Below are positions 47,949 to 64,000 of a stretch of 64,000 bases of DNA, in pieces (position 1 is the first letter of the stretch; each line of letters starts with the position of its first letter). Made by a program: the position numbers and the translations under genes. The notes below the pieces were generated by a model. The model saw nothing but the letters and a program-made list of their open reading frames with translations, made no database searches and had not been told where the DNA came from. This stretch comes from Candidatus Omnitrophota bacterium (lineage in GTDB: Bacteria > Omnitrophota > Gorgyraeia > Gygaellales > Profunditerraquicolaceae). The stretch is from positions 325,165 through 389,164 of the forward strand of contig JBAZJY010000001.1 in NCBI GenBank assembly GCA_041651115.1, written 5' to 3'.

Positions 47949-47965
47949 AAGAATATTTAGCTAAG

Positions 47966-49507: not shown

Positions 49508-49535
49508 ACAAATAAGCAAAATAAAGAAAGGAAGG

Positions 49536-50525
49536 ATGACCATGTTTAAGGGGCGCAATGTCCTTGTTGCCGGCGGAGCCGGATTTACCGGCGCAAATTT
49601 AGTGCAGCGATTGGTATCGCTGGGGGCAAATGTCCGGGCGACGTTATATAAGAAAAACGCGATAATCCAGGACAAGCGGATCGAATATATCCGCTGCGAT
49701 TTAAGGCAAATGGAAGACTGTACAAAAGTCGTTAAGGATATGGAATACGTCTTTATGTGCGCAGCGAATACTTCAGGCGCCGCGGTAATCAAGGCTAATC
49801 CGCTTGCCCATGTGACCCCGAACCTGGTGATGAATGCGCAGATGCTGGAAGCTGCGTATTTTGCCAAGGTGAAGAAATTTTCCTTTATGAGCAGCAGCGT
49901 TGTTTACCCTCCTTCCGGCAGCCATCCGTGCAAGGAAGATGAAATGATGAATGGTGACCCGGCAGATATATATTTTCTCGCTGCCTGGATGAAACGGTAT
50001 ACGGAGATCTCCTGCCGTTATTTTTCACAGAAGATAAATAATCCCATCGGCACAGCGGTGATCCGGCCGGCAAATATTTACGGGCCGCATGATAATTACG
50101 ACCTCGCTACCTCGCATGTCATGTCGGCAATGATCCGTAAGGTCGTTGAACGGCAGAATCCTATCCAAGTCTGGGGGACCGGCGAAGATGTGCGCGACTG
50201 GATTTATGTTGAGGACCTGATAGACGGATTTTTGTTGGCAACCGAAAAATTGAATACTTACGATCCGGTAAATATTGCCCTTGGCAAAGGTTATACGATC
50301 ATGCAAATGCTGCAGATATTGCTGGAACTCGAAGACTACCGCGATGCTAAGATCATTTGCGATCCTTCCAAGCCGTCAATGATCCCGATACGGCTTTTTG
50401 ATACGACAAAAGCAGAAAAACTATTAGGCTTTAAGGCAAAGCATGACTTGAGGGAAGGGCTAAAGAAAACAATTGCCTGGTATAAGGCTACGCATAGCGT
50501 TCCGGCAAAATCTGCTGCGGCATAG
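49536..50525 (+). CDS. SDR-family NAD-dependent sugar epimerase/reductase (paralog 2)
   Basis: VLVAGGAGFTGANLVQRL...RIEYIRCDLRQMEDC. Confidence 0.7.
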   Translation: MTMFKGRNVLVAGGAGFTGANLVQRLVSLGANVRATLYKKNAIIQDKRIEYIRCDLRQMEDCTKVVKDMEYVFMCAANTSGAAVIKANPLAHVTPNLVMNAQMLEAAYFAKVKKFSFMSSSVVYPPSGSHPCKEDEMMNGDPADIYFLAAWMKRYTEISCRYFSQKINNPIGTAVIRPANIYGPHDNYDLATSHVMSAMIRKVVERQNPIQVWGTGEDVRDWIYVEDLIDGFLLATEKLNTYDPVNIALGKGYTIMQMLQILLELEDYRDAKIICDPSKPSMIPIRLFDTTKAEKLLGFKAKHDLREGLKKTIAWYKATHSVPAKSAAA

Positions 50526-50537
50526 CAAGAGAAAAGG

Positions 50538-51716
50538 ATGAAAGTATATATTAAGGGCCTGAATAGCTGCCTTACGCGCAAGCAAAAATTGCAGCAATAC
50601 AGGGATTTTCTGGTTGCCAACGGCCATGAGATAACGCATGACCATAAGAAGTGCGATAAGATCCTTCTGTGGACTTGTGCATACAGGGCAGATGTGCGCG
50701 ATAATTCAATCGCCCAATTGGATTATTACCGGCGCAATAGCAAGGCAGAGGTTATTGCCGCAGGCTGTCTTCCTGATATTGCCCCGGGGTTATTGGAAAA
50801 AAGTTTTCCCGGTCGTGTAATAAGCTGGCGGAAGGACAAAGATAAATTTGTACAAGTCTTCGGGCATCCAAAAATCAGATTTGCGGAAAATTGCCGCGTC
50901 TTCGTCGAACCGCCGCTTTGCGAAGATGCAGCAGTATTCCGCAAAAAACATCCGGGTAAGGACGTCACCTTCCTTGACCAGTTCGTTAAATTAGTTGTTT
51001 CCGAAGGATGCGGATTTAAGTGCTCTTACTGCTCTGAGCGCTTGGCATTTCCTGCTTATCGGAGTTTTCCCGAGGCAGCGCTGGTTCGCATGTGCCGCGC
51101 AATGATAAAAGAAAGCGGTAAGCAGGAGGTGGCCCTTATTGCCGACAGCCTAGGCGAGTATGGCCAGGATATCGGGGTTTCGCTTCCTTCTCTGGTTCGT
51201 AAATTAGCGGCAGTCAGTCCCGGCCTAAGGATCGCGTTAAATAATTTGAACCCAGGCAGTTTTCTGCGCTATAAGAAGGAGCTGTCCGGATTCATCGCAA
51301 AGGGGATTATCCGGCATATAAACTTGCCCATACAATCCGCATCCGGGCGCATGCTTGATCTGATGCAGCGGCCATACACGCGTAAGGATATTGATGAAAT
51401 ATTTACCTTATTCAATAAGCTTAAATTTACCGATTTTGATACGCATATTATTGTCGGCTTTCCGGGAGAAACCGAAGACGATCTTGCGGAAACCGTTAAA
51501 TTCGTTTTACGTTACCGGCCGAAATACGTATTAATAAATAAGTATATGGAGGCCCCGGAAATGCCTTCCGCAGGATTGCCGGGAAAGGTTCCGGCAAGGG
51601 TTATCGCTGCCAGGGCTAAGAAAGCAGCGCGGCAGATAAAGGCGGCAGGGATAATTTCTAATAACGACGGAAGTAAACGGGCCAAAGACCGCCTGGAAAG
51701 ATTGAATCATGGTTAA
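50538..51716 (+). CDS. radical SAM protein with methylthiotransferase-like (UPF0004) N-terminal domain, no TRAM domain
   Basis: KVYIKGLNSCLTRKQ...CDKILLWTCAYRA (MTTase N-domain-like) then CGFKCSYC. Confidence 0.65.
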   Translation: MKVYIKGLNSCLTRKQKLQQYRDFLVANGHEITHDHKKCDKILLWTCAYRADVRDNSIAQLDYYRRNSKAEVIAAGCLPDIAPGLLEKSFPGRVISWRKDKDKFVQVFGHPKIRFAENCRVFVEPPLCEDAAVFRKKHPGKDVTFLDQFVKLVVSEGCGFKCSYCSERLAFPAYRSFPEAALVRMCRAMIKESGKQEVALIADSLGEYGQDIGVSLPSLVRKLAAVSPGLRIALNNLNPGSFLRYKKELSGFIAKGIIRHINLPIQSASGRMLDLMQRPYTRKDIDEIFTLFNKLKFTDFDTHIIVGFPGETEDDLAETVKFVLRYRPKYVLINKYMEAPEMPSAGLPGKVPARVIAARAKKAARQIKAAGIISNNDGSKRAKDRLERLNHG

Positions 51717-52731
51717 TACTTTTGCGGAAAATCCTGACTTTAGAAAGACCGGTTTATATGCCTCATTTATTAAGCAGCCGCTGAGTTTCGTGGATGCCGG
51801 GGCGGCAGAAGGGGTATTTCCTTTGATTATGCCGATAGCTTCGCTTACCCACGCCATGTGTTTTGATCCTAATCAAGATGCGGCAGAAGAGCTTAGGGCT
51901 TGCGGGCAGTCATCCTTTGCCAAATATACGGTAGTTTCTTCCGCCTTGTATAATAAAACCGGCAGGCATAAATTTTTTGTGACGAAGAACCCGAACTGTT
52001 CATCACTCTTGATGCCGAATCTCCAGCTGGCAACCCGCTACGGCGCAAGCGGCTTGCCGGTAAAAAAGATAATATCGGTCCCGACAAAATCATTGGATCA
52101 GATTGCCTTTAGTCGCCGCTATATTGATGAAAGGATCGGCGAGTTCATTAAGCTTGATTGCCAGGGAGTAGAATACGATATCCTTTTAGGCGCAAAAAAA
52201 GTACTTGCAAGGCAGTGTATGGCGGTATGGTGCGAAGCGGAATTTATGCATATCTATGAAAAACAGAAGACCTTTTCTGAGCTGAATGCATATTTGCAGA
52301 AAAATGGATTTTTGCTTTACGGGCTTTATCCAAGGTATATTTCGGCAAAAAAAATCGACCGGAAGAAATGCGATACGGAAGAGAGGATACTCTGGGCAGA
52401 CGCCTTGTATTTTAAAGACCCGATAGACAAGGCTAACAAAAAGCGCTTATTTACAAAAAGGGACAAAGAGGTGATCCTGTTGGTCTATCTTATCGCTGGA
52501 TATTATGATGCCGCCCTGGAACTTATTGACGTTATTTATAAGGCGGCAGCGGATAAAAGACTGCTGAAAAATGTAGTTTATGGCCTGGCGCAAGGAAAGA
52601 AGAAAGCGATTGAAGCGGCAGCAGCGCAATTCATCCGCGATTGCCGCAAGGATCGTAAAAATACCTATTTGACGGCAAAGCGGTTTATCGATAAAAACAA
52701 AGCCAATAACAGCGTAGAGTTCGTTAAATAA
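51709..52731 (+). CDS. FkbM-family methyltransferase
   Basis: FVDAGAAEGVF...FIKLDCQGVEYDILLG matches the FkbM pattern (IKIDVEGAE..VL.G). Confidence 0.6.
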   Translation: MVNTFAENPDFRKTGLYASFIKQPLSFVDAGAAEGVFPLIMPIASLTHAMCFDPNQDAAEELRACGQSSFAKYTVVSSALYNKTGRHKFFVTKNPNCSSLLMPNLQLATRYGASGLPVKKIISVPTKSLDQIAFSRRYIDERIGEFIKLDCQGVEYDILLGAKKVLARQCMAVWCEAEFMHIYEKQKTFSELNAYLQKNGFLLYGLYPRYISAKKIDRKKCDTEERILWADALYFKDPIDKANKKRLFTKRDKEVILLVYLIAGYYDAALELIDVIYKAAADKRLLKNVVYGLAQGKKKAIEAAAAQFIRDCRKDRKNTYLTAKRFIDKNKANNSVEFVK

Positions 52732-53737: not shown

Positions 53738-54234
53738 TGAGAGTAGAAAAGACAAACCTCGATGGCGTATTACTGGTTACTTTAGATGTATTTAAAGACC
53801 ACCGGGGGGAATACGTTGAGACGTATAATAAAAAATTATATGCGGATAACGGGATCGATGTGGAATTCGTTCAGGACGACATATCGGTATCTTCAAAAAA
53901 CGTATTAAGAGGGATCCATGGCGATGGGCGTACCTGGAAGCTGATCTCCTGCCCTTATGGGAAAATATACTTTGTGGTGGTTGTTTGCAATCCGGCATCC
54001 CGGCAGTTCGGCCAATGGCAATCGTTTATTTTATCCGAAGAAAATCGTCAACAGGTATTGGTTCCGCCAAAATTCGGTAATGCGCACCTGGTTTTAAGCG
54101 ATAAGGCGATCTTCCAATATAAGCAGACAAGCTATTACGATCCGGGATCGCAGTTTTCCTGCAAATGGAATGACCCGCGTTTTAAGATCACCTGGCCGGT
54201 TAGCGAACCGATATTATCTAAACGCGATGGATAA
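53734..54234 (+). CDS. dTDP-4-dehydrorhamnose 3,5-epimerase-family cupin (short, RmlC-like)
   Basis: VLLVTLDVFKDHRGEYVETY...LRGIHGD. 166 aa. Confidence 0.7.
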   Translation: MMRVEKTNLDGVLLVTLDVFKDHRGEYVETYNKKLYADNGIDVEFVQDDISVSSKNVLRGIHGDGRTWKLISCPYGKIYFVVVVCNPASRQFGQWQSFILSEENRQQVLVPPKFGNAHLVLSDKAIFQYKQTSYYDPGSQFSCKWNDPRFKITWPVSEPILSKRDG

Positions 54235-55177
54235 AGCCATTTTGAACATGGAAGAGAAAGTAGCCTTAGAAATATTAGTTGAAGATGACGCCGCTGCCAT
54301 GGCATCAATGATCGGTAAATTGTATGCGATCAAACGGCCGCCGGAATATTATGCCTGGCATTGTTTTCAATCTCCGGATCTTACGGTTACGGTTGGATTG
54401 AAAAGCAGGGGAGAATTAGGCGGGGTCTTCAGCATGCAAAAAAGACGGCTGAATAATGATCTATTATGCGGACAGGCCAATCATTTGAATATCGCTGCCG
54501 AATTGCAAGGTAAAGGATATTTTTCAAAATTAGGCGAAAAAGCAATGCACCGCTTTAAAGATATCGGTATGGTCTGTGTTTTCGCCAATAAACAGGCAAA
54601 GCCAGCCTGTGAATCATCATTGGGTATGAAGACAATCGGGATTATCCCGGCGATGGTATTGAATGTAAACGGCATTACGGATGATAGCGGAGCCAATAAT
54701 ACCTGCAAACCGATAAGTGAAGACACGGTTTTCCCGTCTTGTCAGGAAGATAAAGACATTATTATGTTTAAATATCTGTCTTCGCATCGCAGCTGGCGAT
54801 ATGCCAAGCATCCGATGTATTCGTATTACATAGTGTATATTGATAGCGGTGAATATGCCATCATTAAGAAGTTTTCTGATCCACAAACAAGGGTTAGTCT
54901 AGGCGATATCGTTGATCTTGAGTGCCCGCTTAACGACAAGGAAAAGCTGCATAAAATTATTAAGGCAGCATCCTGGCATTTAAAACAGCAAGGCGTATCG
55001 ACAATTACTTGCTGGGCAGTTCCGGGCGGCGTTGTTAATCAAGTAATGAAAGATATCGGCTTTCGTCCGGCCGGGCATGAAACGTATTTTTGCATTAAGG
55101 TATTGAGGCCGGAATACGATCATCTATGTGATTTTTCACGATGGCATTTAAGGATGGCCGATGCGACGAATTATTAA
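54230..55177 (+). CDS. hypothetical protein, possible GNAT-like acyltransferase
   Basis: Weak GNAT-like motif (GQANHLNIAAELQGKGYFSKLGEKAMHRF). Start chosen at MDKAIL, overlapping the upstream stop. Confidence 0.3.
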   Translation, partial: DKAILNMEEKVALEILVEDDAAAMASMIGKLYAIKRPPEYYAWHCFQSPDLTVTVGLKSRGELGGVFSMQKRRLNNDLLCGQANHLNIAAELQGKGYFSKLGEKAMHRFKDIGMVCVFANKQAKPACESSLGMKTIGIIPAMVLNVNGITDDSGANNTCKPISEDTVFPSCQEDKDIIMFKYLSSHRSWRYAKHPMYSYYIVYIDSGEYAIIKKFSDPQTRVSLGDIVDLECPLNDKEKLHKIIKAASWHLKQQGVSTITCWAVPGGVVNQVMKDIGFRPAGHETYFCIKVLRPEYDHLCDFSRWHLRMADATNY

Positions 55178-55189
55178 GCCTAACGGGGG

Positions 55190-56194
55190 TTGGTTAAAAT
55201 GATCATTACAAGGACACCATTCCGTATTTCATTTTTTGGCGGCGGTACAGACTACCCTGTTTGGTATAAAGAAAATAAGGGCGCGGTTTTAAGCACAACG
55301 ATCAATAAATATTGCTATATTAGCTGCAGGTATCTCCCGCCGTTCTTTAATTATAAATATTTGATCAGGTATAGATTGCGCGAGGAAGTGCGAAACGCCA
55401 AAGACATAAATCATCCGGCAGTGCGCGAGGCTTTAAAATACCTGCGGATAAAAAACGGCGTGGAGATCGTTCATACCAGCGATATCCCGGCGCAATCAGG
55501 GGTAGGCTCAAGTTCTTCTTTTACGGTCGGGCTTTTGCATACTTTGTATGCTTTAAAGGGGAAGATCGTGACAAAGAGAAAGCTTGCAGATGACGCGATC
55601 CATATCGAACAGAATATAATAAACGAGAATGTCGGTTCACAGGACCAGGTGGCAGTTGCCTTCGGAGGGTTTAATAAAATAGAGTTTGGCGGCGACAATG
55701 AATTCTATGTGCATCCCATTACCTTATCTAAGGAAAGGGTGGACCTTTTACAGGATCATTTAATGCTTTTCTTTACCGGCTTTTCCCGGACCGCTTCAGA
55801 AATAGCAAGCGAGCAGATCCGGCAGACTAATAACAAAAAGAAAGAGCTGACTAATTTATTGGAGATGGTTGATGCTGCCGTGAACATCCTTAACGGTAAT
55901 TCCGATTTAAATAAATTCGGAAAATTATTGCATGAATCATGGGAAATCAAGAGAGACCTGACGCATCTGATCACAACGCATAAGATCAATGAAATTTACG
56001 ATACGGCTCTAAGGAGTGGGGCGCTGGGAGGAAAGGTTTTAGGCGCCGGTGGCGGTGGATTTATCCTTTTATTTGTCCCGCCTCAATATCATGGCCGGGT
56101 CAGGGAAAAGTTAAAAAGGCTGTTGCATGTTCCGTTCGGCTTTGAGAAACTGGGCAGTCAGGTTGTTTTATATGCAGCGCAGGACTTCTATTAA
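55190..56194 (+). CDS. GHMP-family sugar kinase (D-glycero-D-manno-heptose 7-phosphate kinase HddA-like)
   Basis: MIITRTPFRISFFGGGTDYPVWY and the ATP loop PAQSGVGSSSSF. Confidence 0.65.
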   Translation: MVKMIITRTPFRISFFGGGTDYPVWYKENKGAVLSTTINKYCYISCRYLPPFFNYKYLIRYRLREEVRNAKDINHPAVREALKYLRIKNGVEIVHTSDIPAQSGVGSSSSFTVGLLHTLYALKGKIVTKRKLADDAIHIEQNIINENVGSQDQVAVAFGGFNKIEFGGDNEFYVHPITLSKERVDLLQDHLMLFFTGFSRTASEIASEQIRQTNNKKKELTNLLEMVDAAVNILNGNSDLNKFGKLLHESWEIKRDLTHLITTHKINEIYDTALRSGALGGKVLGAGGGGFILLFVPPQYHGRVREKLKRLLHVPFGFEKLGSQVVLYAAQDFY

Positions 56195-56198
56195 CCAA

Positions 56199-56900
56199 AT
56201 GAAGAATATTGCCGCAGTGGTCTTATGTGGGGGGCAAGGCAGCCGGCTTAAGGGTTTGGTCAGCGACCGGCCTAAACCGATGGCGGATATCAGCGGTTCG
56301 CCTTTTATGGATATTTTGATCAGGCATCTACGAAGTTTCGGAATAAAAAAATATATCTTATGCGCAGGGTTTATGGCCGGCTATATTGAAGAATATTATC
56401 ATCGTGAAATGGCGGCGGGGGATTTGGTTATTGTAAAAGAAAAACTGCCGTTGGGAACTGCAGGGGCGATAAGCCACGCGCAGGATTTCATTGAAACCGA
56501 TCATTTTTTGGTTGTGAACGGTGATTCATTTTGCGCTGCTGACCTTAATGCATTTTTAGACTTTCATTCGGCTAAAAAGGCACGGTTGTCCATGGTTGTG
56601 TCCCGTATAGACAATGCAGCGGATTGCGGCAGCATTATTTTAGATGATACGAATAGGGTCGTAAGATTTGAGGAAAAGAAACATAGAGGTACGGCGTTGG
56701 CCAATGCCGGGATTTATCTGTTTAGCAGGGAAGTACTTTCATTGGTGCCTAAGGGCCTAAAGTATTCCCTGGAGAGAGATCTCTTCCCCCGGATGGCAGG
56801 AAAAGATTTCTACGGTTTTTTGACCGACGCCAAGCTTTTCGATATCGGGACGCCCGAGCGTTACGCAGAGGCAAAGACGTATTTCAAGGATAAAAAATAG
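56199..56900 (+). CDS. sugar-1-phosphate nucleotidyltransferase (heptose-1-P guanylyltransferase HddC-like)
   Basis: AAVVLCGGQGSRLKGLVSDRPKPMADISGSPFMD. About 235 aa. Confidence 0.7.
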   Translation: MKNIAAVVLCGGQGSRLKGLVSDRPKPMADISGSPFMDILIRHLRSFGIKKYILCAGFMAGYIEEYYHREMAAGDLVIVKEKLPLGTAGAISHAQDFIETDHFLVVNGDSFCAADLNAFLDFHSAKKARLSMVVSRIDNAADCGSIILDDTNRVVRFEEKKHRGTALANAGIYLFSREVLSLVPKGLKYSLERDLFPRMAGKDFYGFLTDAKLFDIGTPERYAEAKTYFKDKK

Positions 56901-56912
56901 AGGGCGCTGCTC

Positions 56913-59306
56913 ATGGCAGAAAAAAGAAAAAAGGCGATTATTTTGGGTGCCGGGCCGCTCGGCCTGGTCACCGGTTGGCAGTTACTGCTTCACGACTGGT
57001 CAGTAGACATTTACGAAAAAGAAGCGCAGACCGGCGGGGCATGTAAAACCTGGAAATGGGACGGTTTTCTTGTTGATACGGGGCCGCATATCTATCATAC
57101 TCCGGACCAGGAATTAGCCAAATTCTGGGAGGCCGAATTCGCAGGCCTGTTCATTAAGGATGATTTTTGGTGCAAGAACGTCAAAGGAGAAGGTTTTACG
57201 GAATTCTGGGATTATCCGTTGTCATGGGAGAGCATTTCCCGCTATCCAAAAACGTTAAAAGAGAAGATTGTTAGAGAGTTGGATAACTTAAGCCTTGAAA
57301 CAAAAGCCAAGGCGCGCAATTACGCAGAATATATGCAGGCGCAGGTAGGCCCGACTTTAAACGAAATATTCTTTAAGAAATATCCCGCGAAGATCTGGGG
57401 TATATCTACCGATGATATGGCTGCGGATTGGGCTCCTAAAAGGATAGAATTTCGTCAAAAGGTAACGCCATTTTATCATAAGCAGTGGAATGCTGCAGGT
57501 AAGTACGGCACAGGCTGCATCTTTCAAAGGATCGAAGAGAAAATATTAAAATTAGGCGGCAAGATCCATATTAATGCGGAAGTAACCGGCATATCAGCAA
57601 AATCTAATACGATTACCGCGGTAAAGATCAATCATGCAAAAAATATTCCCGTTGGCAGTGACGATATGGTGATTTCCAGCCTACCGATAACCCTGCTTTC
57701 CAGGTTCCTTGGCTATGCAAGCAAATTGCATTTTCGCTCTTTGCGCACAGTTTATCTGGCTTATAATAAAGAAACGGTCTTACCGCAGGGCATACACTGG
57801 TTGTATTATGATTCCGATAAAGTCCTTTTCCACCGGATCACCGAGCCTAAAAAGCTCTCTGCCTTCGTTGCTCCTAAAGGTAAGACCTATCTTGCTGCCG
57901 AGATAACCTGTGATAAGGACGACCGCATATATAGCATGGAAGAAAAAACGCTTATTAAGAAAATAGCCGAGCAGGTCGAACAAGTCGGGTTGGCGCGTAG
58001 GAAAGACATGATTAATGGCGCAACGCACAGGCAAGATGCAGTTTATCCGGTTCAATATCGGGGATATCAGAACGAGCTTGCAAAAGTGCGTTCCCGGATT
58101 GCTAAATACCAGCAGCTTTATTCGCTCGGTACGGGCGGAGAATTCCATTATTCCGATATACAGGTGATCTTCCATAAAGCCTTTGATACCGCGGCAATGC
58201 TTTGCGGAAAGGATTCTTCTTTTGCGCAGGTATTGCGTTGTGCCAGCCGTTGTGAATTAAACCGGCAGGTTACGATAGGCAGAAGAAAGATCGGCGAGGG
58301 CAACCGGGCTTACATTATCGCAGAGGCCGGCTTGAACCATAACGGGAGCATAGATCTTGCTAAAAAGTTGATTGATGCTGCCAAGAAAACCGGCTGTGAT
58401 GCAATAAAATTCCAGGCGTTTAGGGCGGAAAGCCGGGTTTCAAAAAAAGTAAAGGCCGCCAGATACGCGGAAAAGATCATCGGCACGGAAGAGACACTGT
58501 TTGAGATGTTTGACCGTTTATCTTTGAGTTTCAAGGCGCAGGAAGAGATCTTCCGGTATGCCCGGAAAACCGGCATAGAGATTTTTTCTACGCCGTTTGA
58601 TTTTGAGAGTGTGGACTTCCTGGAATCTTTAGGCGTGAAGGCCTATAAGATCGCCTCTATGGATCTGGTAAATCTACCGTTTATCCGCTACGTTGCCAAA
58701 ACAAAAAAGCCGGTCATTCTTTCTACGGGCATGTCAACATTGGGCCAGATCGAGGAGGCTGTTGAGGCGGTTGCAAGCGAAGGGAACTCTAATCTTGTCC
58801 TGTTGCATTGTAATTCTTCTTATCCGGCAGCTCCGGAAGAGATGAATCTCAATGTTATGCGTGCGCTAAGAGAATGCTTTGCCGTGCCGGTCGGGCTCTC
58901 CGATCATACCTTGGGCCTGTTCGTATCCCGCATTGCCATAGCTATCGGAGCAAATGTTATTGAGCGACATTTTACCTTAAACCGGATGTTCGAAGGTCCC
59001 GATCATATCCTGTCTTCTGAACCGGAGGAAATGAAACAGCTGGTAGATGCGGCAAAAATGATCCCGCTTGTCCTTGGCGATAGCGGCAAGCGGATCCAGC
59101 CTAATGAATACGATACGCTTAACGCTCAAAGAAAAAGCCTTTATGCGGCGAGGCGCATCAGAAAAGGAGAGGCGATTGCTTCGGGTATGATCGCTGTAAA
59201 AGGCCCGGGTGGCGGCATACTGCCGCGATACATGGATATAGTCGTCGGGCGGAATGCGAGAACTGATATTGAGCAGGACTATCCGATAACCTGGGATGTG
59301 ATATGA
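56913..59306 (+). CDS. fusion protein: N-terminal FAD-dependent UDP-galactopyranose-mutase-like domain plus C-terminal NeuB-family (sialic/nonulosonic acid synthase) domain with SAF domain
   Basis: N-terminus AIILGAGPLGLVTGWQLL...GPHIYHT (UGM GPHIFHT motif). C-terminus RAYIIAEAGLNHNGSIDLAKKLIDAAKKTGCDAIKFQAF plus a C-terminal SAF region. 797 aa in a single ORF. Confidence 0.65.
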   Translation: MAEKRKKAIILGAGPLGLVTGWQLLLHDWSVDIYEKEAQTGGACKTWKWDGFLVDTGPHIYHTPDQELAKFWEAEFAGLFIKDDFWCKNVKGEGFTEFWDYPLSWESISRYPKTLKEKIVRELDNLSLETKAKARNYAEYMQAQVGPTLNEIFFKKYPAKIWGISTDDMAADWAPKRIEFRQKVTPFYHKQWNAAGKYGTGCIFQRIEEKILKLGGKIHINAEVTGISAKSNTITAVKINHAKNIPVGSDDMVISSLPITLLSRFLGYASKLHFRSLRTVYLAYNKETVLPQGIHWLYYDSDKVLFHRITEPKKLSAFVAPKGKTYLAAEITCDKDDRIYSMEEKTLIKKIAEQVEQVGLARRKDMINGATHRQDAVYPVQYRGYQNELAKVRSRIAKYQQLYSLGTGGEFHYSDIQVIFHKAFDTAAMLCGKDSSFAQVLRCASRCELNRQVTIGRRKIGEGNRAYIIAEAGLNHNGSIDLAKKLIDAAKKTGCDAIKFQAFRAESRVSKKVKAARYAEKIIGTEETLFEMFDRLSLSFKAQEEIFRYARKTGIEIFSTPFDFESVDFLESLGVKAYKIASMDLVNLPFIRYVAKTKKPVILSTGMSTLGQIEEAVEAVASEGNSNLVLLHCNSSYPAAPEEMNLNVMRALRECFAVPVGLSDHTLGLFVSRIAIAIGANVIERHFTLNRMFEGPDHILSSEPEEMKQLVDAAKMIPLVLGDSGKRIQPNEYDTLNAQRKSLYAARRIRKGEAIASGMIAVKGPGGGILPRYMDIVVGRNARTDIEQDYPITWDVI

Positions 59307-60361
59307 GCATGAATTACGAGAAGACTGCGCGGGAGTTAATCAGCAGAGTAACAGATACGGCAAAAACAAAAAAGAAACTTTCCGGATTTTGCATCGGTAA
59401 TACTGCAAAGATCGAGAATAACGATTTATATTTTACTCCCCTGAGAGAAATACATAATATGTCCATTGCCGGGGTAATTGTTTATAGCGAAAAGCAGGCG
59501 ATTGATATTGCCAGGGAGGCAGATGGCAAGGTAGATTATATCCTGGTAGATGCGGAAAAAAAGATACCGGAATGCATGTCGCGCCTTGGCACGCCGGCGA
59601 ATGTTGAGCGGGCAGTAAGAGAAACCGTAAAAAAATCTTCGCTTTGGGTATACAAAGGGAATGATCTGGCAGTCGAAGCATTAGACGGGTTACTCGCGTA
59701 TCTTACTAAAGATTCTTTGCAGGGGATAGGCGGGAAAAAGATCGCGATCATCGGCGCGGGAAATCTGGGGTGTAAGTTAGCCATTAAGCTCGTAGAAAGA
59801 GGGGCGCATATATTTATTACCCGCAGGGATGCTGCAAAGATAAAAATCATTGCCAAAGCGATTAATCATATTAAACCTGCCTATACTATTGCAAAAGTCA
59901 TCGGCATGACTGATAACTTGGCTGCCTGCAAAGGAGCGGACATTTTGATCGGGATGACTGCGGGGATCCCGGTGATCACCGCGGAAATGATAAGGAGCCT
60001 TGCCCCGGGGGCCATTGTCGTTGACGGTGGAAAAGGCACGTTATACCCGGAAGCAATAGGCGCCGCTTATAAATCGGGTATTGAGGTTTACCGTCTTGAT
60101 GTCAGCGCTGCCTTTGAAGGGTTGATCAGCCATCTCTTTGCTTGCGAGAACCTGGTGAGAAAACGCATGGGCCGCCGGGTTTTTAGGGGAGAGCCGATCG
60201 TCTCCGGAGGATTAATGGGCAGAAAAGGGGATATCGTCGTAGATAATGTCCATGCCCCTAGTATGGCCTATGGTATTGCCGACGGCAAAGGAGATTTTAT
60301 CCGCTCCCTTTCCCAAAAACACTTAGCGCGTATGAAAAGTATTAAAGTGCAAGAAAAGTAA
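59303..60361 (+). CDS. hypothetical protein with Rossmann NAD(P)-binding domain (shikimate/quinate-DH-like)
   Basis: GKKIAIIGAGNLGCKLAIKLVERGAHIFITRRD. Confidence 0.35.
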   Translation: MSMNYEKTARELISRVTDTAKTKKKLSGFCIGNTAKIENNDLYFTPLREIHNMSIAGVIVYSEKQAIDIAREADGKVDYILVDAEKKIPECMSRLGTPANVERAVRETVKKSSLWVYKGNDLAVEALDGLLAYLTKDSLQGIGGKKIAIIGAGNLGCKLAIKLVERGAHIFITRRDAAKIKIIAKAINHIKPAYTIAKVIGMTDNLAACKGADILIGMTAGIPVITAEMIRSLAPGAIVVDGGKGTLYPEAIGAAYKSGIEVYRLDVSAAFEGLISHLFACENLVRKRMGRRVFRGEPIVSGGLMGRKGDIVVDNVHAPSMAYGIADGKGDFIRSLSQKHLARMKSIKVQEK

Positions 60362-60383: not shown

Positions 60384-62135
60384 ATGCATTATGAAGACTT
60401 GATCCCTGAAAATGGATATGTAGTTGCCGAGATTGCCTGTGGGCATGGCGGCGATCCGGCAAAACTTAAAAAACTGATTGATTGCGCTGCTTTAAGCAAT
60501 GCCAGGATCGTTAAATTCCAGATTTTTACCCTGGAGGAAAGGCTGGATCCTCGCTGGGATATTTTTGCTAAACTGGTGCTGCCGCAGCAGGCATGGGAAG
60601 AAGCAGCGCGCTATGCGCGTCAAAAAGGACTCGTCATATTTGCAGATATCTTTGGCGAGAGCAGCCTAAAGCTTGCCCGGGAATTGGGCGTTGAAGGTTT
60701 TAAAGTGCATTCCGAGGACATGTTGAACAGTTCTTTTGTTGCCAAGGTCGCCGCAGAAGGAAAGATCACAATGATCAGCGTAGGGGGTGCGCACCGTATA
60801 GAAATATATCAACTGGTAAATTTTCTAAAGACCCTGGGGTTGCTTAAAAATATTATATTAGTTACCGGATTTCAGGCTTATCCTACCCCGATAGAAGATC
60901 ACTCTTTATGGGAAGTCGCGGATTTGATCGAAAAATATTCGCCTTACGGCATAAAAGTTGCGTTTGCCGATCATGTTTCCGGAGATTTGCCCGAAGCCAA
61001 GGCAATACCCCTGATGGCGCTTGCGAAAGGCGCCTGCCTTGTTGAAAAACATATTACCGTTAATCGCAAGCGTAAGTGGGTAGATTATCAGTCGGCGTTA
61101 AGTAAAGACGATTTTACAGATTTTATCGGGCAGGTGAATCAGCTGGCTCCTTTATTGAAAAAAACCGGCTATTTTACGTCTTCCGAAGAAAAATACCGGA
61201 AGACATTTAAAAAAAGTGCCTGCGCTGCATCTGACTTGAAAAATGGCCGCATCCTGGCGCCGGATGACTTTGGGTTCAATAAAAATAATACTGATGAAGT
61301 GCCTTCCCTTGCTGCCTTAAGCCTGATCGGCAAAGAACTCAAGGTAGATGTTAAAAAAGGAGAATTTTTTCGCTCTTCGCAGATGAAGGGTAAAGTTGGC
61401 GGGATCATTGTTGCCCGCTGCTCATCAAATCGGCTGCCGAATAAAGCGTTATGCCTGATTGACGGCCGCGAGTCGATAGCGGTGCTTATTGACCGGATCA
61501 AGCGCTGCAAGCGTTTAGATTGCATTATCCTGGCAACTTCTACCGATCATTCCGATGATATTCTGGTTGAGATAGCTAATCGTGAGGGCATTTTGCCTTT
61601 CCGGGGATCTTTGGAAAATGTTTCGTCGCGGTTCTACGAAGCGGCTAAATATTACGGATTAGACCATTTCGTGCGTATCACCGGAGATGCCATTCTTTGT
61701 GACGAAGTAATGATCGACCATGCAGTAAAAAGCCATTTACATAGTTGTTGTGATGCGACTTTTATGAAAAATATGCCTTTTGGCACACATAAAGAAGTAG
61801 TCAGCATGAATACAATAAGAACGATCCTTGATACCGCTGCCATCCCATCCAATACCGAATATCTGGAATATTACCTGGAGAACAGCCGCTATTTTAACAT
61901 CAATTACGTCGCTGCCGATTACGTATTTGACCATAATTTACGCATTACGCTGGACTACGAAGAAGACCTGGAATTATTCAGGCGCATATACGGCCATTTT
62001 AATAAAATTAACCCGGCGTTTACGTTACGCGATGCCCTTGCCTGGTTGGGGGAGCATCCGGAAATCGCAAAAATCAATATGCACAAACGGCAAAAGTTTT
62101 TAAGCCACCAGCTCAATGTCGAGCTACACATTTAA
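60384..62135 (+). CDS. fusion protein: divergent NeuB-like TIM-barrel domain plus SpsF/NeuA-type cytidylyltransferase domain
   Basis: N-terminus YVVAEIACGHGGDPAKLKKLIDCAALSNARIVKFQIF (NeuB-like, no SAF domain). C-terminus GGIIVARCSSNRLPNKALCLIDG (acylneuraminate cytidylyltransferase/SpsF-like). Confidence 0.6.
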   Translation: MHYEDLIPENGYVVAEIACGHGGDPAKLKKLIDCAALSNARIVKFQIFTLEERLDPRWDIFAKLVLPQQAWEEAARYARQKGLVIFADIFGESSLKLARELGVEGFKVHSEDMLNSSFVAKVAAEGKITMISVGGAHRIEIYQLVNFLKTLGLLKNIILVTGFQAYPTPIEDHSLWEVADLIEKYSPYGIKVAFADHVSGDLPEAKAIPLMALAKGACLVEKHITVNRKRKWVDYQSALSKDDFTDFIGQVNQLAPLLKKTGYFTSSEEKYRKTFKKSACAASDLKNGRILAPDDFGFNKNNTDEVPSLAALSLIGKELKVDVKKGEFFRSSQMKGKVGGIIVARCSSNRLPNKALCLIDGRESIAVLIDRIKRCKRLDCIILATSTDHSDDILVEIANREGILPFRGSLENVSSRFYEAAKYYGLDHFVRITGDAILCDEVMIDHAVKSHLHSCCDATFMKNMPFGTHKEVVSMNTIRTILDTAAIPSNTEYLEYYLENSRYFNINYVAADYVFDHNLRITLDYEEDLELFRRIYGHFNKINPAFTLRDALAWLGEHPEIAKINMHKRQKFLSHQLNVELHI

Positions 62136-62188: not shown

Positions 62189-64000
62189 ATGAAGCTGAGG
62201 ATCATTGCTGGCCGCGGGCTGGTAGAAAAATATCGTTCTGAAAAAGAATTAAAGAATATCTATGTATCTGCTGATTTTTTGGTGCAAGGCGATTCTTCGG
62301 TAATCACAATCGAAGATAAGGCCCGGGCCAGGGCATTTTTTTACGGGCGCGTTATCGGCAGGCGCAGCGGTCCGGATACGATGGACAGCTTAAGCAAGAC
62401 GGACGTTAATTTTAAATCGTTTGTATCCTCGCAGCCGACAGACAAGTGCCTGGCGGAACTGGAAGGCCGGTTTATCCTTGTTAAGATCACTGATAAACAG
62501 GGATGCGAGGTCTGTTGCGACCGTTTCGGCCGGATCGACCTTTATTACCAGCAAATAAACGAAGGGGCGGTATTTGCGTCTGACCTAAGCCTACTGCCGT
62601 TTAAGGACGGCACAGTAAAATATGACCCGGTTGGCATTGCCCACGCACTTTATATCTACGGGTTCCGGCCGGCAAAGCAGCATACTATTTACCGCGATGT
62701 AAAGAGGCTGGGGGTAGGTGAAATTGCTTCTTGGCAAGATAACAAGCTTGGATTCCGGCAATTTGTATTCCCCAGAATAGAAACTAACGAGAATTACGGC
62801 GAAAAAGATATTAAGAGATATTATGACATTATCATTGATGCAATAGCAAAACGCGCATCGAGTAACGGTAATCTGATTTATCTTTCTTCAGGGTGGGACT
62901 CCAGCTCGCTACTTTCCCTGTTAGTAAAACTCTATGGAGCAAATAAGACAAGGGCATTGATCGGCCGGATGCACCTGTCTAAGCGCGCCGGTGTGATCAA
63001 TCAATTTGAGATCGACCGCGCTAAACGGATTGCCGATTATTTCGGCATAAAATTAGAGATTGCAGAATATGATTTTTGGCAAAGAAGCGATGAGCTGATC
63101 GCGGAATTGCAGCCGTTTATGCGTTCGCATATGCTTACCAGCATGTCATTCTTTTTCTGGGCAGTATTAGCTGCCCAGGCGGCAAAAACCAGCCGCGGCG
63201 AAGCCGTATTCGCAGGCGAGACCAGCGACGGCGCGCATAACCTGGGCTTTGCGCAGTTTACCACTATTTTTCATCCGGTACTGGAATTCCGCGAGTACAG
63301 CGATAAAATGGCCTCGTATCTTTTTGGGCCGACATTCCTTAGGTCTATACAGAACGGTAAATTTAATACAGACCCGATCTATAACTTGTTAAAACAAAAA
63401 TACCAGGGGCGCGTTTTTGATTCTCCGGCAAGCAGCCCGGATGGCTGCGCGCGCCAATTATTTGCCGCTCTTTTTAGCCGCGATAACCGCATGCCGCTTT
63501 GGTCATTAAAAAATACAAAGCTGATGACCGATAGAGGGCGGCAGGGTTACAGCGACGAGATGGAAGGAACGTACTTCAATAAGCTGGAAACTTCTCCGGA
63601 AACGCTATATGCTTCTTACTTGCGCCTATACAACTCTTTTCATTGGCAAGGCGGCACAGTGTCAACGCTGGCGTTCACGGCCAATAACTACGGACTGGAA
63701 ATGAACCTTCCGTATTGGGACAGCCGGATGCAGGATTTCTTATCGGCAATGCCGGAATCCTGGGGCAGGGGCCTGGAAATAAAGCCGACCAAGTATCCTT
63801 TAAAAGCCATGCTCCGGCAATACGTTGATTATCCCTGGCATCTGCAGGCAGGGCCGCATTCTTACCTGTATGATATCGATCCTAATTTCAGCCCTGTCGG
63901 CGAGTTTATTTATGATTCTGCGTTTACGCCGCATTTAAAAAGATTATTGAAAAGCCGCGCGTATGAAAGTATCTTGTCGCCGGAATTTTTCGATCTGGAT
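62189..64000 (+). CDS. asparagine-synthetase-family amidotransferase lacking the N-terminal Cys nucleophile (PseA/WbpG-like); 3' end outside the window
   Basis: PP-loop LSSGWDSSSLLSLL (AsnB SGGLDSS-like). The N-terminus is MKLRIIAG, with no Cys2. GGAGATGA RBS. The ORF runs off the window end and is absent from the track. Confidence 0.65.
   Translation, partial: MKLRIIAGRGLVEKYRSEKELKNIYVSADFLVQGDSSVITIEDKARARAFFYGRVIGRRSGPDTMDSLSKTDVNFKSFVSSQPTDKCLAELEGRFILVKITDKQGCEVCCDRFGRIDLYYQQINEGAVFASDLSLLPFKDGTVKYDPVGIAHALYIYGFRPAKQHTIYRDVKRLGVGEIASWQDNKLGFRQFVFPRIETNENYGEKDIKRYYDIIIDAIAKRASSNGNLIYLSSGWDSSSLLSLLVKLYGANKTRALIGRMHLSKRAGVINQFEIDRAKRIADYFGIKLEIAEYDFWQRSDELIAELQPFMRSHMLTSMSFFFWAVLAAQAAKTSRGEAVFAGETSDGAHNLGFAQFTTIFHPVLEFREYSDKMASYLFGPTFLRSIQNGKFNTDPIYNLLKQKYQGRVFDSPASSPDGCARQLFAALFSRDNRMPLWSLKNTKLMTDRGRQGYSDEMEGTYFNKLETSPETLYASYLRLYNSFHWQGGTVSTLAFTANNYGLEMNLPYWDSRMQDFLSAMPESWGRGLEIKPTKYPLKAMLRQYVDYPWHLQAGPHSYLYDIDPNFSPVGEFIYDSAFTPHLKRLLKSRAYESILSPEFFDLD

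What the first reader, a model, noticed from the sequence alone, without database searches (positions are those of the whole stretch)
56913..59306. Single 797-aa ORF fusing a UDP-galactopyranose-mutase-like flavoenzyme to a NeuB-type nonulosonic acid synthase
The N-terminal half carries the UGM dinucleotide-binding fold and the GPHIYHT motif. The C-terminal half is a canonical NeuB TIM barrel plus SAF domain (NHNGS, KFQ). UGM-type enzymes interconvert pyranose and furanose nucleotide sugars, and NeuB enzymes condense PEP with a 6-carbon aldose. A covalent fusion suggests substrate channelling from a ring-contracted or ring-opened sugar into a PEP condensation. I am not aware of this architecture being described.
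Basis: partly seen in the sequence, partly recalled or inferred. Interest (0 to 1): 0.65.

Follow-up and report, generated by a model that had tools for sequence, protein, structure and literature searches.

The report
Flavoenzyme–sialic-acid-synthase fusion, conserved module
A real, widely conserved bacterial gene fuses a UDP-galactopyranose-mutase-like flavoenzyme to a sialic-acid-type (NeuB) synthase and always travels with an uncharacterised dehydrogenase and a CMP-transferase, which points to an undescribed route to activated sialic-acid-like surface sugars.

Summary
The 797-aa ORF (56913-59306, +) is exactly as reported and is not an artefact. An independent assembly gives the identical ORF. 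More than 120 full-length homologues (59-70% identity) and 58 genome loci in many phyla carry the same single-ORF fusion.

- **N-half:** sequence-closest to eukaryote-type UGMs. It keeps the UGM His-loop His, both diphosphate-binding Arg and both Tyr in at least 58 of 59 fusions. Next to the catalytic Tyr it has its own signature, Y-x-D-x-Q instead of Y-x-N-x-D.
- **C-half:** a complete NeuB barrel plus SAF domain with invariant conserved core residues.
- **Context:** the fusion sits next to an uncharacterised 352-aa NAD(P) dehydrogenase (53 of 59 loci, ATGA overlap here, and triple-fused in some metagenomic proteins). A cytidylyltransferase usually follows.
- **Missing step:** no NeuC/LegG-type hydrolase lies in the window, the 10 kb beyond it, or 57 of 58 loci. 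No recurrent neighbour is PseG-like.

Best reading: a three-activity unit making a CMP-activated ulosonic acid. The flavin domain would displace the nucleotide from an NDP-sugar and hand the ring-opened aldose to NeuB. That step is inferred, not shown. I found no paper describing the architecture. Novelty: new variant of a known kind. Interest 0.62.

The parts
56913..58217 (+). N-terminal FAD-binding, UGM-like domain of the fusion (about aa 1-435)
   Evidence: **Family hits.**
- Pfam NAD_binding_8, Amino_oxidase and GLF.
- The best NCBIfam match is the uncharacterised PRK07208 family.
- The best PDB sequence match is T. cruzi UGM 4dsg, E 2e-13, aligned over residues 6-414.

**Conserved residues.**
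- H59, R177, R308, Y378 and Y413 align to TcUGM H62, R176, R327, Y395 and Y429. They are conserved in at least 58 of 59 fusions.

**Clade signature.**
- H62, P158, D415 and Q417.
58218..58307 (+). Conserved inter-domain linker (about aa 436-465)
   Evidence: The linker is continuous in frame. It is conserved in the consensus of 20 homologues. The AF2 model has low confidence at 438-442.
58308..59102 (+). NeuB-type TIM-barrel domain (PEP + aldose condensation), about aa 466-730
   Evidence: **Family hits.**
- Pfam NeuB 304.9 bits.
- TIGR03569 386.8 bits and PseI 323.9 bits.
- PDB: PseI 8h2c E 2.5e-61, SpsE 1vli, NmNeuB 1xuu.

**Residues invariant in 59 of 59 fusions.**
- E471, H476, K499, Q501, K579, D584, H665, E684 and H686.
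59103..59306 (+). C-terminal SAF (antifreeze-like) domain of NeuB, plus the stop codon
   Evidence: Pfam SAF 31.7 bits, residues 741-796. The 'K763-G-P' motif, conserved in 55 of 59 fusions, aligns to the Arg of 'VRPSFG' in PseI. AF2 confidence is low here, which is expected for a domain that is swapped between subunits in NeuB dimers.
59303..60361 (+). 352-aa NAD(P)-binding two-domain dehydrogenase, the obligatory partner of the fusion ('P352')
   Evidence: **Linkage to the fusion.**
- Its ATG overlaps the fusion's stop codon (ATGA).
- It is present in 53 of 59 fusion loci, usually adjacent and co-directional with the fusion in either order.
- It is covalently fused in P0262 (1141 aa).

**What it resembles.**
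- Public sources name it only 'NAD(P)-binding domain-containing' or 'hypothetical'.
- AF2 mean pLDDT is 92.5.
- It has no close PDB neighbour (query-normalised TM at most 0.47). The best matches are DpaA, GluDH, D-2-hydroxyacid dehydrogenases and the shikimate-DH class.
60384..62135 (+). 583-aa fusion of a divergent NeuB-like barrel and a CTP_transf_3 cytidylyltransferase (CMP-activation step)
   Evidence: Pfam NeuB 117 bits plus CTP_transf_3 72.7 bits. PDB matches are 6ncs and 6oew. It is full-length in about 14 fusion loci. Elsewhere a stand-alone CTP_transf_3 of the SpsF or NeuA type occupies the same place. The NeuB-like half keeps most of the conserved core residues.
55190..56900 (+). Upstream feeder pair: a GHMP sugar kinase (HddA- or fucokinase-like) and a sugar-1-phosphate nucleotidyltransferase (GDP-sugar type)
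   Evidence: Pfam and NCBIfam hits are. The GHMP kinase recurs in only 7-8 fusion loci, at 36-64% identity, so it is a lineage-specific input and not core. A gene caller places the NTP-transferase start at about 56199 (233 aa).
62189..64000 (+). AsnB-like amidotransferase ORF running off the window end (639 aa in the full contig). It is a probable tailoring enzyme of the same cluster.
   Evidence: Open frame. TIGR01536 51 bits. The same family follows the NeuB-like/CTP gene in L004, L008 and L010. Beyond the window it is followed by rSAM-SPASM, an SDR, an unknown 434-aa protein and an ABC exporter.

Best explanation
The ORF encodes a bifunctional enzyme that is the core of a conserved unit: a UGM-like flavin domain, a NeuB synthase domain and the 352-aa NAD(P) dehydrogenase, followed by a cytidylyltransferase. 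The unit makes a CMP-activated 3-deoxy-2-ulosonic acid, a sialic-acid-like sugar, for a surface glycan.

**Proposed sequence of steps.**
1. Upstream, lineage-variable enzymes build an NDP-sugar. Here these are a sugar kinase and a GDP-type nucleotidyltransferase, with epimerases and dehydratases nearby.
2. The UGM-like domain binds that NDP-sugar through the conserved Arg and Tyr diphosphate clamp. As in UGM, reduced-flavin N5 displaces the nucleotide and opens the ring as a flavin-iminium adduct.
3. Instead of re-closing to a furanose and re-attaching the nucleotide, the adduct is hydrolysed. C-2 epimerisation through the enamine is possible at this point. This releases the free acyclic aldose next to the NeuB domain.
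4. The NeuB domain condenses the aldose with PEP.
5. The 352-aa dehydrogenase carries out a redox tailoring step on the sugar or the ulosonate.
6. The cytidylyltransferase makes the CMP-sugar.

**Shown here.**
- The architecture is real and conserved.
- Both domains are catalytically intact.
- The fusion is linked to the dehydrogenase and the CMP-transferase.
- Epimerase_2-type hydrolases are absent nearby.

**Inferred.**
- Steps 2, 3 and 5, and the identity of the sugar.
For: **The fusion is real and under selection.**
-.

**The N-half is UGM-like and NDP-sugar-binding.**
- All top PDB sequence hits are UGMs.
- GLF scores above its Pfam threshold.
- H59, R177, R308, Y378 and Y413 are conserved in 58-59 of 59 fusions, down to 32% overall identity. 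They are also conserved in 77-92 of 92 stand-alone relatives.
- One stand-alone relative, P0274, sits in an ordinary polysaccharide locus, the kind of setting expected for a glf gene.

**The fused clade has changed active-site chemistry.**
- Y-x-D-x-Q replaces Y-x-N-x-D, and H62 and P158 are invariant.
- The N-domain clade is almost never found unfused. One apparent split form is a frameshift-fragmented contig.

**The NeuB half is intact.**
-.

**Functional coupling of the three activities.**
- ATGA overlap with the partner gene.
- The partner is usually adjacent to the fusion, in both gene orders.
- A triple-fusion protein exists, P0262.

**A CMP-transferase is usually in the locus.**
-.

**The canonical sugar-releasing step is missing.**
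- A profile built from WecB and NeuC-like sequences finds Epimerase_2 in none of the window ORFs. It finds a strong hit in only 1 of 58 fusion loci, L005, which also has a second ordinary NeuB.
- No recurrent neighbour is PseG-like. The GT-B-like neighbours match NulO-cluster glycosyltransferase families.
- The 10 kb downstream of the window also lacks one.
- Loci otherwise contain NDP-sugar-building enzymes: NTP transferases, dehydratases or epimerases, and DegT.
Against: - There is no biochemical evidence. UGM-family enzymes are known, to my knowledge, only as mutases, not hydrolases.
- At the fold level the N-half matches protoporphyrinogen oxidases as well as it matches UGM. The Pfam Amino_oxidase score (53.5 bits) exceeds the GLF score (33.9 bits).
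- The 'missing hydrolase' test covers only about 10 kb either side of the fusion. Its control is weak: only 2 of the 18 non-fusion loci showed an Epimerase_2 hit. PseG was looked for only among recurrent neighbour families.
- The role of the 352-aa dehydrogenase is unexplained. If it merely keeps the flavin reduced, or acts in a flavin-linked redox cycle, the mechanism would be different.
- NeuB enzymes normally cope with free cyclic sugars without help, so a ring-opening helper is not strictly needed.
- The full-length AF2 model is only moderate (pLDDT 73.5). It gives no information on a tunnel between the two active sites.
Confidence: 0.4

Rival explanations
1. The N-domain is a redox flavoenzyme (oxidase or dehydrogenase of the PPO or amine-oxidase type), not an N5-nucleophile enzyme. 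Together with the 352-aa NAD(P) dehydrogenase it would carry out an oxidation and reduction on the sugar or on the ulosonic acid, for example an epimerisation, a deoxygenation, or an oxidation that prepares for transamination. This would happen before or after the NeuB step.
For: - Pfam Amino_oxidase at 53.5 bits scores above GLF.
- Foldseek ranks PPO (3lov, 3i6d) level with or slightly above TcUGM.
- There is an obligatory NAD(P) dehydrogenase partner, which is even triple-fused.
- Class-III and DegT aminotransferases are frequent neighbours.
- The clade-specific active-site changes could mark a change of chemistry.
Against: - Sequence similarity to PPO, CrtI and amine oxidases is far weaker than to UGMs (TIGR00562 27 bits against a 97.85 cutoff).
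- The residues that clamp the UDP diphosphate in UGM, and the His-loop His, are invariant. An oxidase of a non-nucleotide substrate would have no reason to keep them.
Confidence: 0.2
2. The N-domain is an ordinary NDP-pyranose/furanose mutase. It would supply a furanose donor for the same glycan. It would be fused to NeuB only for co-expression or stoichiometry, with no metabolic hand-over between the two domains.
For: - The UGM catalytic constellation is conserved.
- The stand-alone relative P0274 sits among glycosyltransferases, as expected for a glf gene.
- The window cluster is a large, mixed glycan locus.
Against: - The clade is almost never unfused across more than 10 phyla and down to 32% identity. 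It always travels with the dehydrogenase and usually a CMP-transferase rather than with particular glycosyltransferases.
- A triple fusion exists.
- The active-site motif next to the catalytic Tyr differs from that of the stand-alone relatives.
- Minimal loci, such as those in Prochlorococcus and CPR bacteria, contain little beyond a NulO-type pathway.
Confidence: 0.13
3. The N-domain acts after CMP activation. It would bind the CMP-ulosonate, with the phosphate and the C1 carboxylate mimicking a diphosphate, and contract its ring. This would give a furanosidic ulosonic acid donor.
For: - A CMP-transferase is usually in the locus.
- The Arg and Tyr clamp is conserved, but neighbouring residues are changed from N/D to D/Q. 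This could reflect a phosphate-plus-carboxylate ligand.
- Furanosidic Kdo exists in some capsules. This is my own knowledge and was not checked here.
Against: - Attack of flavin N5 on a quaternary anomeric carbon has no precedent.
- Fusing the first and last enzymes of a pathway is less usual than fusing consecutive steps.
- There is no supporting data.
Confidence: 0.07
4. The single ORF is an assembly or frameshift artefact joining two ordinary genes.
For: None found.
Against: - The identical ORF appears in an independent assembly.
- 58 genome loci and more than 120 protein clusters have the same single-ORF architecture and a conserved linker.
- The one 'split' case found is an obviously frameshift-ridden long-read contig.
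Confidence: 0.01

Closest known systems
UDP-galactopyranose mutase, eukaryote-type (T. cruzi 4dsg, A. fumigatus 3ute) and bacterial Glf (Pfam GLF PF03275)
   Same: - An FAD Rossmann fold with GxGxxG.
- The His-loop His.
- The flap Arg and the second Arg that bind the UDP diphosphate.
- Two active-site Tyr.
- The alignment runs end to end (residues 6-414), and all of these residues are invariant in the family.
   Different: - Only about 20% identity.
- It fails the Glf equivalog model (TIGR00031, 39.7 bits against a 303.75 cutoff).
- The motif after the last Tyr is Y-x-D-x-Q rather than Y-x-N-x-D.
- It is covalently joined to NeuB.
- It is linked to a dehydrogenase and a CMP-transferase rather than to furanosyltransferases.
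NeuB / LegI / PseI nonulosonic-acid synthases (PF03102 + SAF; TIGR03569, TIGR03586)
   Same: - A full TIM barrel plus SAF domain, with an invariant conserved core.
- 33-38% identity to PseI and NmNeuB over the structural alignment (sequence matches).
   Different: - It falls just below both equivalog cutoffs (386.8 against 399.65, and 323.9 against 340.25). It therefore cannot be assigned to the Neu/Leg or the Pse type.
- It has Lys where PseI aligns an Arg in the SAF loop.
- It carries a 450-aa flavoenzyme at its N-terminus.
Canonical CMP-Neu5Ac, CMP-Leg and CMP-Pse pathways (NeuC/LegG or PseG hydrolase, then NeuB/LegI/PseI, then NeuA/LegF/PseF)
   Same: - The same overall logic: an NDP-sugar is built, a free sugar is condensed with PEP, and the product is CMP-activated.
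- The same kinds of neighbours: dehydratases or epimerases, DegT, SDR and CTP_transf_3.
   Different: - No Epimerase_2 hydrolase was found nearby, and no recurrent neighbour is PseG-like.
- There is an extra obligatory 352-aa dehydrogenase of unknown function.
- The window cluster has no sugar aminotransferase or acetyltransferase among its annotated ORFs. Its product here may therefore be a non-aminated or otherwise unusual ulosonic acid.
PRK07208-type stand-alone flavoproteins (NCBIfam NF005547/NF005548, 'hypothetical protein'; about 430-480 aa)
   Same: This is the best NCBIfam match of the N-half (205 bits). It has the same UGM-type residues.
   Different: - At most 31% identity to the fused clade.
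- Stand-alone. The one locus examined (P0274) is an ordinary polysaccharide locus without NeuB.
- It has the Y-x-N-x-D motif.
- It is itself uncharacterised.

Membership tests
UDP-galactopyranose mutase family (flavin-dependent NDP-pyranose mutases) | N-terminal FAD-binding Rossmann motif GxGxxG and a family-level profile match | tested here: met
   G12, G14 and G17 are present in 57 of 59 fusions, the other two being alignment gaps. Pfam GLF scores 33.9 bits against a 26.3 cutoff. The top PDB sequence hits are all UGMs.
UDP-galactopyranose mutase family (flavin-dependent NDP-pyranose mutases) | Catalytic and diphosphate-binding constellation: the His-loop His, two Arg and two Tyr (TcUGM H62, R176, R327, Y395, Y429) | tested here: met
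   H59, R177, R308, Y378 and Y413 align to these positions. They are conserved in 58-59 of 59 fusions. The mapping to native TcUGM numbering uses a 3-residue tag offset that I inferred from the chain index.
UDP-galactopyranose mutase family (flavin-dependent NDP-pyranose mutases) | Equivalog-level match to bacterial Glf (TIGR00031) | tested here: not met
   39.7 bits against a 303.75 cutoff.
UDP-galactopyranose mutase family (flavin-dependent NDP-pyranose mutases) | The Y-x-N-x-D type motif after the last catalytic Tyr, as seen in the stand-alone relatives | tested here: not met
   The fused clade has D415 and Q417 in 25 of 25 representatives and in 59 of 59 loci. The stand-alone relatives have N in 64 of 92 and D in 74 of 92.
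UDP-galactopyranose mutase family (flavin-dependent NDP-pyranose mutases) | Pyranose-to-furanose interconversion of an NDP-sugar with reduced flavin | not testable with these tools
   This needs an enzyme assay.
NeuB-type nonulosonic acid synthase | NeuB TIM barrel plus C-terminal SAF domain | tested here: met
   PF03102 scores 304.9 bits and PF08666 scores 31.7 bits. Foldseek target-normalised TM is about 0.7 to PseI and NmNeuB.
NeuB-type nonulosonic acid synthase | Conserved metal-binding His pair and PEP-binding Lys, Glu and Asp residues | tested here: met
   H665, H686, E471, K499, K579, D584 and E684 are invariant in 59 of 59 fusions. They align with identical residues in PseI and SpsE. 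Their assignment to NmNeuB H215, H236 and the other ligands rests on my own knowledge.
NeuB-type nonulosonic acid synthase | Equivalog assignment to N-acetylneuraminate/legionaminate synthase (TIGR03569) or pseudaminate synthase (TIGR03586) | tested here: not met
   386.8 bits against 399.65, and 323.9 bits against 340.25. Both fall just below the cutoff, so the subtype is unassigned.
Canonical Neu/Leg/Pse biosynthetic pathway | A dedicated NDP-sugar hydrolase or hydrolysing 2-epimerase (NeuC/LegG of the Epimerase_2 family, or PseG) encoded with the synthase | tested here: not met
   - There is no Epimerase_2 hit in the window (64 kb), and none among the genes called in the 10 kb downstream.
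- Only 1 of 58 fusion loci has a strong hit.
- Recurrent GT-B-like neighbours match glycosyltransferase families, not PseG.
- The test is limited to about 10 kb either side of the fusion, and the control set is weak.
Canonical Neu/Leg/Pse biosynthetic pathway | A CMP-ulosonate synthetase (CTP_transf_3) encoded with the synthase | tested here: met
   In the window this is 60384-62135. CTP_transf_3 neighbour clusters are found in 20, 18 and 14 loci.
Protoporphyrinogen oxidase / flavin amine oxidase | Family-level profile match above the curated threshold, and sequence similarity to solved members | tested here: inconclusive
   - Pfam Amino_oxidase scores 53.5 bits, above its 19.8 cutoff. This is a broad superfamily model.
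- TIGR00562 (PPO) scores 27.1 bits against 97.85.
- PDB PPO hits have E of about 5e-4 or weaker.
- Fold similarity to PPO is as good as to UGM.

The most novel reading that the evidence does not exclude
The UGM-like domain would be a new kind of flavoenzyme. It would use the UGM N5-iminium mechanism not to make a furanose but to cleave an NDP-sugar and deliver the acyclic, possibly C-2-epimerised, aldose directly to a fused NeuB active site. This would replace NeuC, LegG or PseG. Together with a new dehydrogenase family it would define a fourth, widespread route to CMP-ulosonic acids. That route might include non-aminated or higher-carbon (C10, heptose-derived) ulosonic acids in clusters like this one, which encodes a heptose-type kinase and guanylyltransferase and no sugar aminotransferase.
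Probability: 0.3. Interest if true: 0.8.

Novelty: new variant of a known kind. Interest (0 to 1): 0.62.

Why it matters
Nonulosonic acids cap surface glycans, flagellins and S-layers, and they shape recognition by phages and the immune system. All described bacterial routes release the free sugar with a NeuC/LegG-type or PseG-type hydrolase.

Here a flavoenzyme domain with the UGM nucleotide-sugar clamp is welded to the synthase. It is tied to an uncharacterised dehydrogenase in some of the most abundant marine bacteria (SAR11, SAR116, Prochlorococcus). It also occurs in CPR bacteria, magnetotactic bacteria, Omnitrophota and Thaumarchaeota.

If the flavin domain does the sugar-releasing step, that would be new chemistry for the UGM family and a new pathway entry. 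The module would also be a marker for a still unidentified class of surface sugars in uncultured microbes. It is directly testable with recombinant protein.

Tried and rejected
**Frameshift or artefact.** Rejected.

**Split versions as evidence for coupling.**
- P0270 turned out to be a frameshift-fragmented fusion.
- P0248 lies at a contig end and is uninformative.
- P0274 is a true stand-alone gene, but it is not next to a NeuB.

**Fold search to separate UGM from PPO.** Inconclusive. Both score alike, and the full-length model is only moderate.

**Regex search for NeuC motifs.** It found nothing even in the control loci, so it was discarded. I replaced it with phmmer and HMM searches seeded with E. 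coli WecB.

**Literature.** Six full-text searches and two papers read. No description of the fusion was found. The C10 ulosonic acids of Magnetospirillum (SugarBase preprint) are a loose lead only. No Magnetospirillum locus was among those returned by the genome scan.

**Rfam and tRNA scan of 62-64 kb.** Nothing found. That stretch is simply a long ORF running off the window.

**Sugar identity.** I did not pursue it. The upstream genes differ between lineages, so the evidence does not support any single assignment.


Full report
**Observation**

The window contains a single uninterrupted ORF at 56913..59306 (+), 797 aa with an ATG start.

Pfam finds these domains:
- NAD_binding_8, residues 10-73.
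- Amino_oxidase, 17-358, 53.5 bits.
- GLF, the UDP-galactopyranose mutase family, 153-346, 33.9 bits against a 26.3 cutoff.
- NeuB, 486-724, 304.9 bits.
- SAF, 741-796, 31.7 bits.

NCBIfam places the C-half just under the equivalog cutoffs for N-acetylneuraminate synthase (386.8 against 399.65) and pseudaminate synthase (323.9 against 340.25). It places the N-half best in the uncharacterised PRK07208 'hypothetical protein' models (205 bits). The bacterial Glf model reaches only 39.7 against 303.75.

**Artefact or real**

- The identical protein is on record from four sources, named 'N-acetylneuraminate synthase family protein [Candidatus Omnitrophota bacterium]'.
- An independent Logan assembly of another read set carries the same 797-aa ORF.
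- More than 120 protein clusters of about 780-820 aa share 59-70% identity and the same Pfam set.
- In a collection of one genome per species, 58 loci hold the full fusion in one ORF. They include Omnitrophota, Elusimicrobia, Nitrospiraceae, Magnetococcales, Zetaproteobacteria, Gammaproteobacteria, SAR11, SAR116, Prochlorococcus and Synechococcaceae (32% identity), Saccharibacteria, Paceibacteria, Terriglobia and a Nitrososphaerales archaeon.
- The inter-domain linker is itself conserved.

A frameshift artefact is excluded.

**What the N-half is**

- Against all PDB sequences, the best matches are UGMs only. T. cruzi UGM (4dsg) scores E 2e-13 and aligns from residue 6 to 414. A. fumigatus UGM scores about 5e-9 and bacterial UGMs about 4e-8. 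Protoporphyrinogen oxidase and carotenoid desaturases are far weaker.
- In that alignment H59, R177, R308, Y378 and Y413 fall on the positions of TcUGM H62, R176, R327, Y395 and Y429. From my own knowledge of UGM structures, these are the histidine-loop His and the Arg and Tyr residues that hold the UDP diphosphate.
- Across 59 fusions, down to 32% identity, these five positions are conserved in 58-59 sequences.
- At the fold level a moderate AF2 model (pLDDT 73.5) matches PPO and TcUGM equally well, with target-normalised TM of 0.63-0.70. The UGM assignment therefore rests on sequence and residues, not on fold.
- A search of 1.84 billion representative proteins with the N-half alone shows that its closest relatives, down to about 30% identity, are almost all proteins of about 790-830 aa, that is, fusions. 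Stand-alone flavoproteins of about 430-480 aa appear mostly at 31% identity or less.
- One such stand-alone protein, P0274, sits among glycosyltransferases in an ordinary polysaccharide locus, the setting expected for a glf gene.
- The stand-alone proteins keep the same five residues.
- The fused clade differs at positions next to the last Tyr. It has Y-x-D-x-Q instead of Y-x-N-x-D, and H62 and P158 are invariant.

The N-half is thus a distinct, nearly always fused offshoot of UGM-like NDP-sugar enzymes with an altered pocket.

**What the C-half is**

It is a complete NeuB barrel plus SAF domain. It shows 33-38% identity to C. jejuni PseI and N. meningitidis NeuB over the structural alignment, and it also matches B. 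subtilis SpsE. The conserved core residues E471, H476, K499, Q501, K579, D584, H665, E684 and H686 are invariant in 59 of 59 fusions. In the SAF loop a Lys (K763, 55 of 59) aligns with the Arg of PseI 'VRPSFG'. I remember the corresponding Arg314 of NmNeuB as contacting the N-acetyl group of ManNAc, so a different C-2 substituent is possible. This was not tested.

**Context**

The fusion's stop codon overlaps the start of the next gene (ATGA at 59303-59306).

The 352-aa partner:
- It contains an NAD(P)-binding Rossmann domain with weak hits to shikimate-DH-type models.
- It occurs in 53 of 59 fusion loci. It is usually adjacent to the fusion and co-directional with it. It usually lies downstream, but in several SAR11 and SAR116 loci it lies upstream.
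- Two metagenomic proteins are about the combined length of fusion plus partner: P0262 (1141 aa) and P0392 (1130 aa). P0262 is a triple fusion of UGM-like domain, NeuB/SAF and this protein. Residues 875-1129 match the partner with E 1e-17. P0392 was not compared directly.
- Public sources call the family only 'NAD(P)-binding domain-containing' or 'hypothetical'.
- A confident model (pLDDT 92.5) has no close solved relative, with query-normalised TM at most 0.47. It most resembles two-domain dehydrogenases of 2-oxo, 2-hydroxy and 2-amino acids, such as DpaA, GluDH and PHGDH.

The third gene:
- In the window (60384-62135) it is a fusion of a divergent NeuB-like barrel with a CTP_transf_3 cytidylyltransferase.
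- It is full-length in about 14 loci. Elsewhere a stand-alone CTP_transf_3 takes its place.

Other frequent but variable neighbours are SDRs, NDP-sugar epimerases and dehydratases, DegT and class-III aminotransferases, aldo-keto reductases, rSAM-SPASM proteins, NulO-cluster-type glycosyltransferases and an ABC exporter.

In this genome the set continues beyond the window with an AsnB-like amidotransferase, an rSAM-SPASM protein, an SDR, an unknown 434-aa protein and an ABC exporter.

The window cluster as a whole (about 31.8-64 kb) is a large glycan locus. It holds:
- A flippase and GT2 glycosyltransferases.
- ManC and RmlABC.
- A split transketolase.
- Radical-SAM and B12-rSAM enzymes.
- Methyltransferases.

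**The missing step**

Canonical Neu, Leg and Pse pathways need a NeuC/LegG (Epimerase_2) or PseG enzyme to release the free sugar from its nucleotide.

- A profile seeded with E. coli WecB and NeuC-like hits found no Epimerase_2 homologue in any of the window's six-frame ORFs. It found a strong one in only 1 of 58 fusion loci (L005), which also has a second, ordinary NeuB.
- Recurrent GT-B-like neighbours match glycosyltransferase families (TIGR04396, BFO_1060), not PseG.
- The window cluster also shows no sugar aminotransferase or acetyltransferase among its annotated ORFs.

The caveats are real. Only about 10 kb either side of the fusion was visible. Only 2 of the 18 non-fusion loci showed an Epimerase_2 hit, so the contrast is suggestive and not significant.

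**Mechanism**

The evidence shows a three-activity unit plus CMP activation. The parts are a flavin domain with an NDP-sugar clamp, a PEP-aldose condensing domain and an NAD(P) dehydrogenase. The unit is therefore a pathway to a CMP-ulosonic acid.

My best-supported reading is that the UGM-like domain takes over the sugar-releasing step. Reduced-flavin N5 displaces the nucleotide and opens the ring, which is established UGM chemistry. The iminium is then hydrolysed, and C-2 epimerisation through the enamine is conceivable. This gives the acyclic aldose that NeuB needs. The dehydrogenase then performs an unidentified redox tailoring step.

I put about 0.8 on 'coupled three-activity CMP-ulosonate module with both domains active'. 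I put about 0.35-0.4 on the specific flavin-mediated release.

Rivals:
- A redox role for the flavin domain with the dehydrogenase (0.2).
- An ordinary mutase fused only for co-expression (0.13).
- Ring contraction of the CMP-ulosonate (0.07).
- Artefact (at most 0.01).

**Comparison with what is known, and novelty**

Each domain belongs to a known superfamily. Neither meets an equivalog definition. The combination with the partner dehydrogenase and without a canonical hydrolase is not described in any paper I could find. That includes a large NulO-synthase phylogeny, which mentions no fusion, FAD or mutase.

A 2026 preprint reports unassigned C10 CMP-ulosonic acids in Magnetospirillum. This shows that unexplained ulosonic acids exist, but nothing links them to this module.

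The architecture is abundant in databases under automatic names. The finding is therefore not unique to this window, but it is functionally unexplored. I rate it a new variant of a known kind, with interest 0.62.

Noticed in passing
window 60384-62135 (+): A second unusual fusion: a divergent NeuB-like barrel joined to a CTP_transf_3 cytidylyltransferase. The NeuB-like half keeps most conserved core residues in 15 of 15 sequences, but it has N475G, N477E/D, T560D and Y637F equivalents. It is unclear whether it is a second synthase or a product-binding domain. About 14 fusion loci have it, and the rest have a plain cytidylyltransferase.
   Followed up: partly
P0262 (1141 aa) and P0392 (1130 aa), metagenomic proteins: P0262 is a triple fusion of the UGM-like domain, NeuB/SAF and a homologue of the 352-aa dehydrogenase. 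Only short contigs (about 4 kb) carry these proteins, so no context could be read. P0392 was not compared directly.
   Followed up: partly
window 45241-46891 (+) and 46914-52731 (+): A split transketolase pair (N and C halves) is followed by an unknown 344-aa ORF, a B12-binding radical-SAM enzyme, an epimerase, a MiaB-like radical-SAM enzyme and an FkbM methyltransferase. This looks like machinery for a branched-chain or C-methylated sugar in the same glycan cluster. Transketolase halves also recur near the fusion in L001 and L008.
   Followed up: no
window 54170-55177 (+): An ORF (335 aa as listed, 309 aa by a gene caller) lies between the RmlC-like gene and the GHMP kinase. It has no Pfam or NCBIfam match and no homologue in the other fusion loci.
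   Followed up: partly
window 62189-64000 (+), continuing in L083 15277-17196: An AsnB-like amidotransferase (639 aa) runs off the window end, so the ORF list does not show it. The same family follows the module in L004, L008 and L010. It may amidate or amidinate the ulosonic acid.
   Followed up: partly
window 56127-56900 (+): The listed ORF start of the nucleotidyltransferase overlaps the GHMP kinase by 68 nt. The Pfam domain begins at residue 30, and a gene caller uses a later start (233 aa, about 56199). The true start is probably the internal Met of 'MKNIAAVVL'.
   Followed up: partly
window 1-64000: Every ORF examined lies on the + strand, and GC skew is positive in every 2-kb bin across all 64 kb. 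Housekeeping genes (Obg, ProB, Rpe, PGM, S1, TyrRS) run directly into the glycan cluster at about 31.8 kb.
   Followed up: no
L012 (CAMCZP010000076.1): A 13-kb MAG contig labelled 'Leptospira interrogans serovar Manilae' carries the full module at 64% identity to the Omnitrophota protein. The taxonomic label of this contig may be wrong, or the module was acquired horizontally.
   Followed up: no
L011 (Nitrososphaerales archaeon) compared with bacterial loci: There is 63% identity between an archaeal and an Omnitrophota copy of an 800-aa protein, and 59-70% across many bacterial phyla. This implies extensive horizontal transfer of the module.
   Followed up: no
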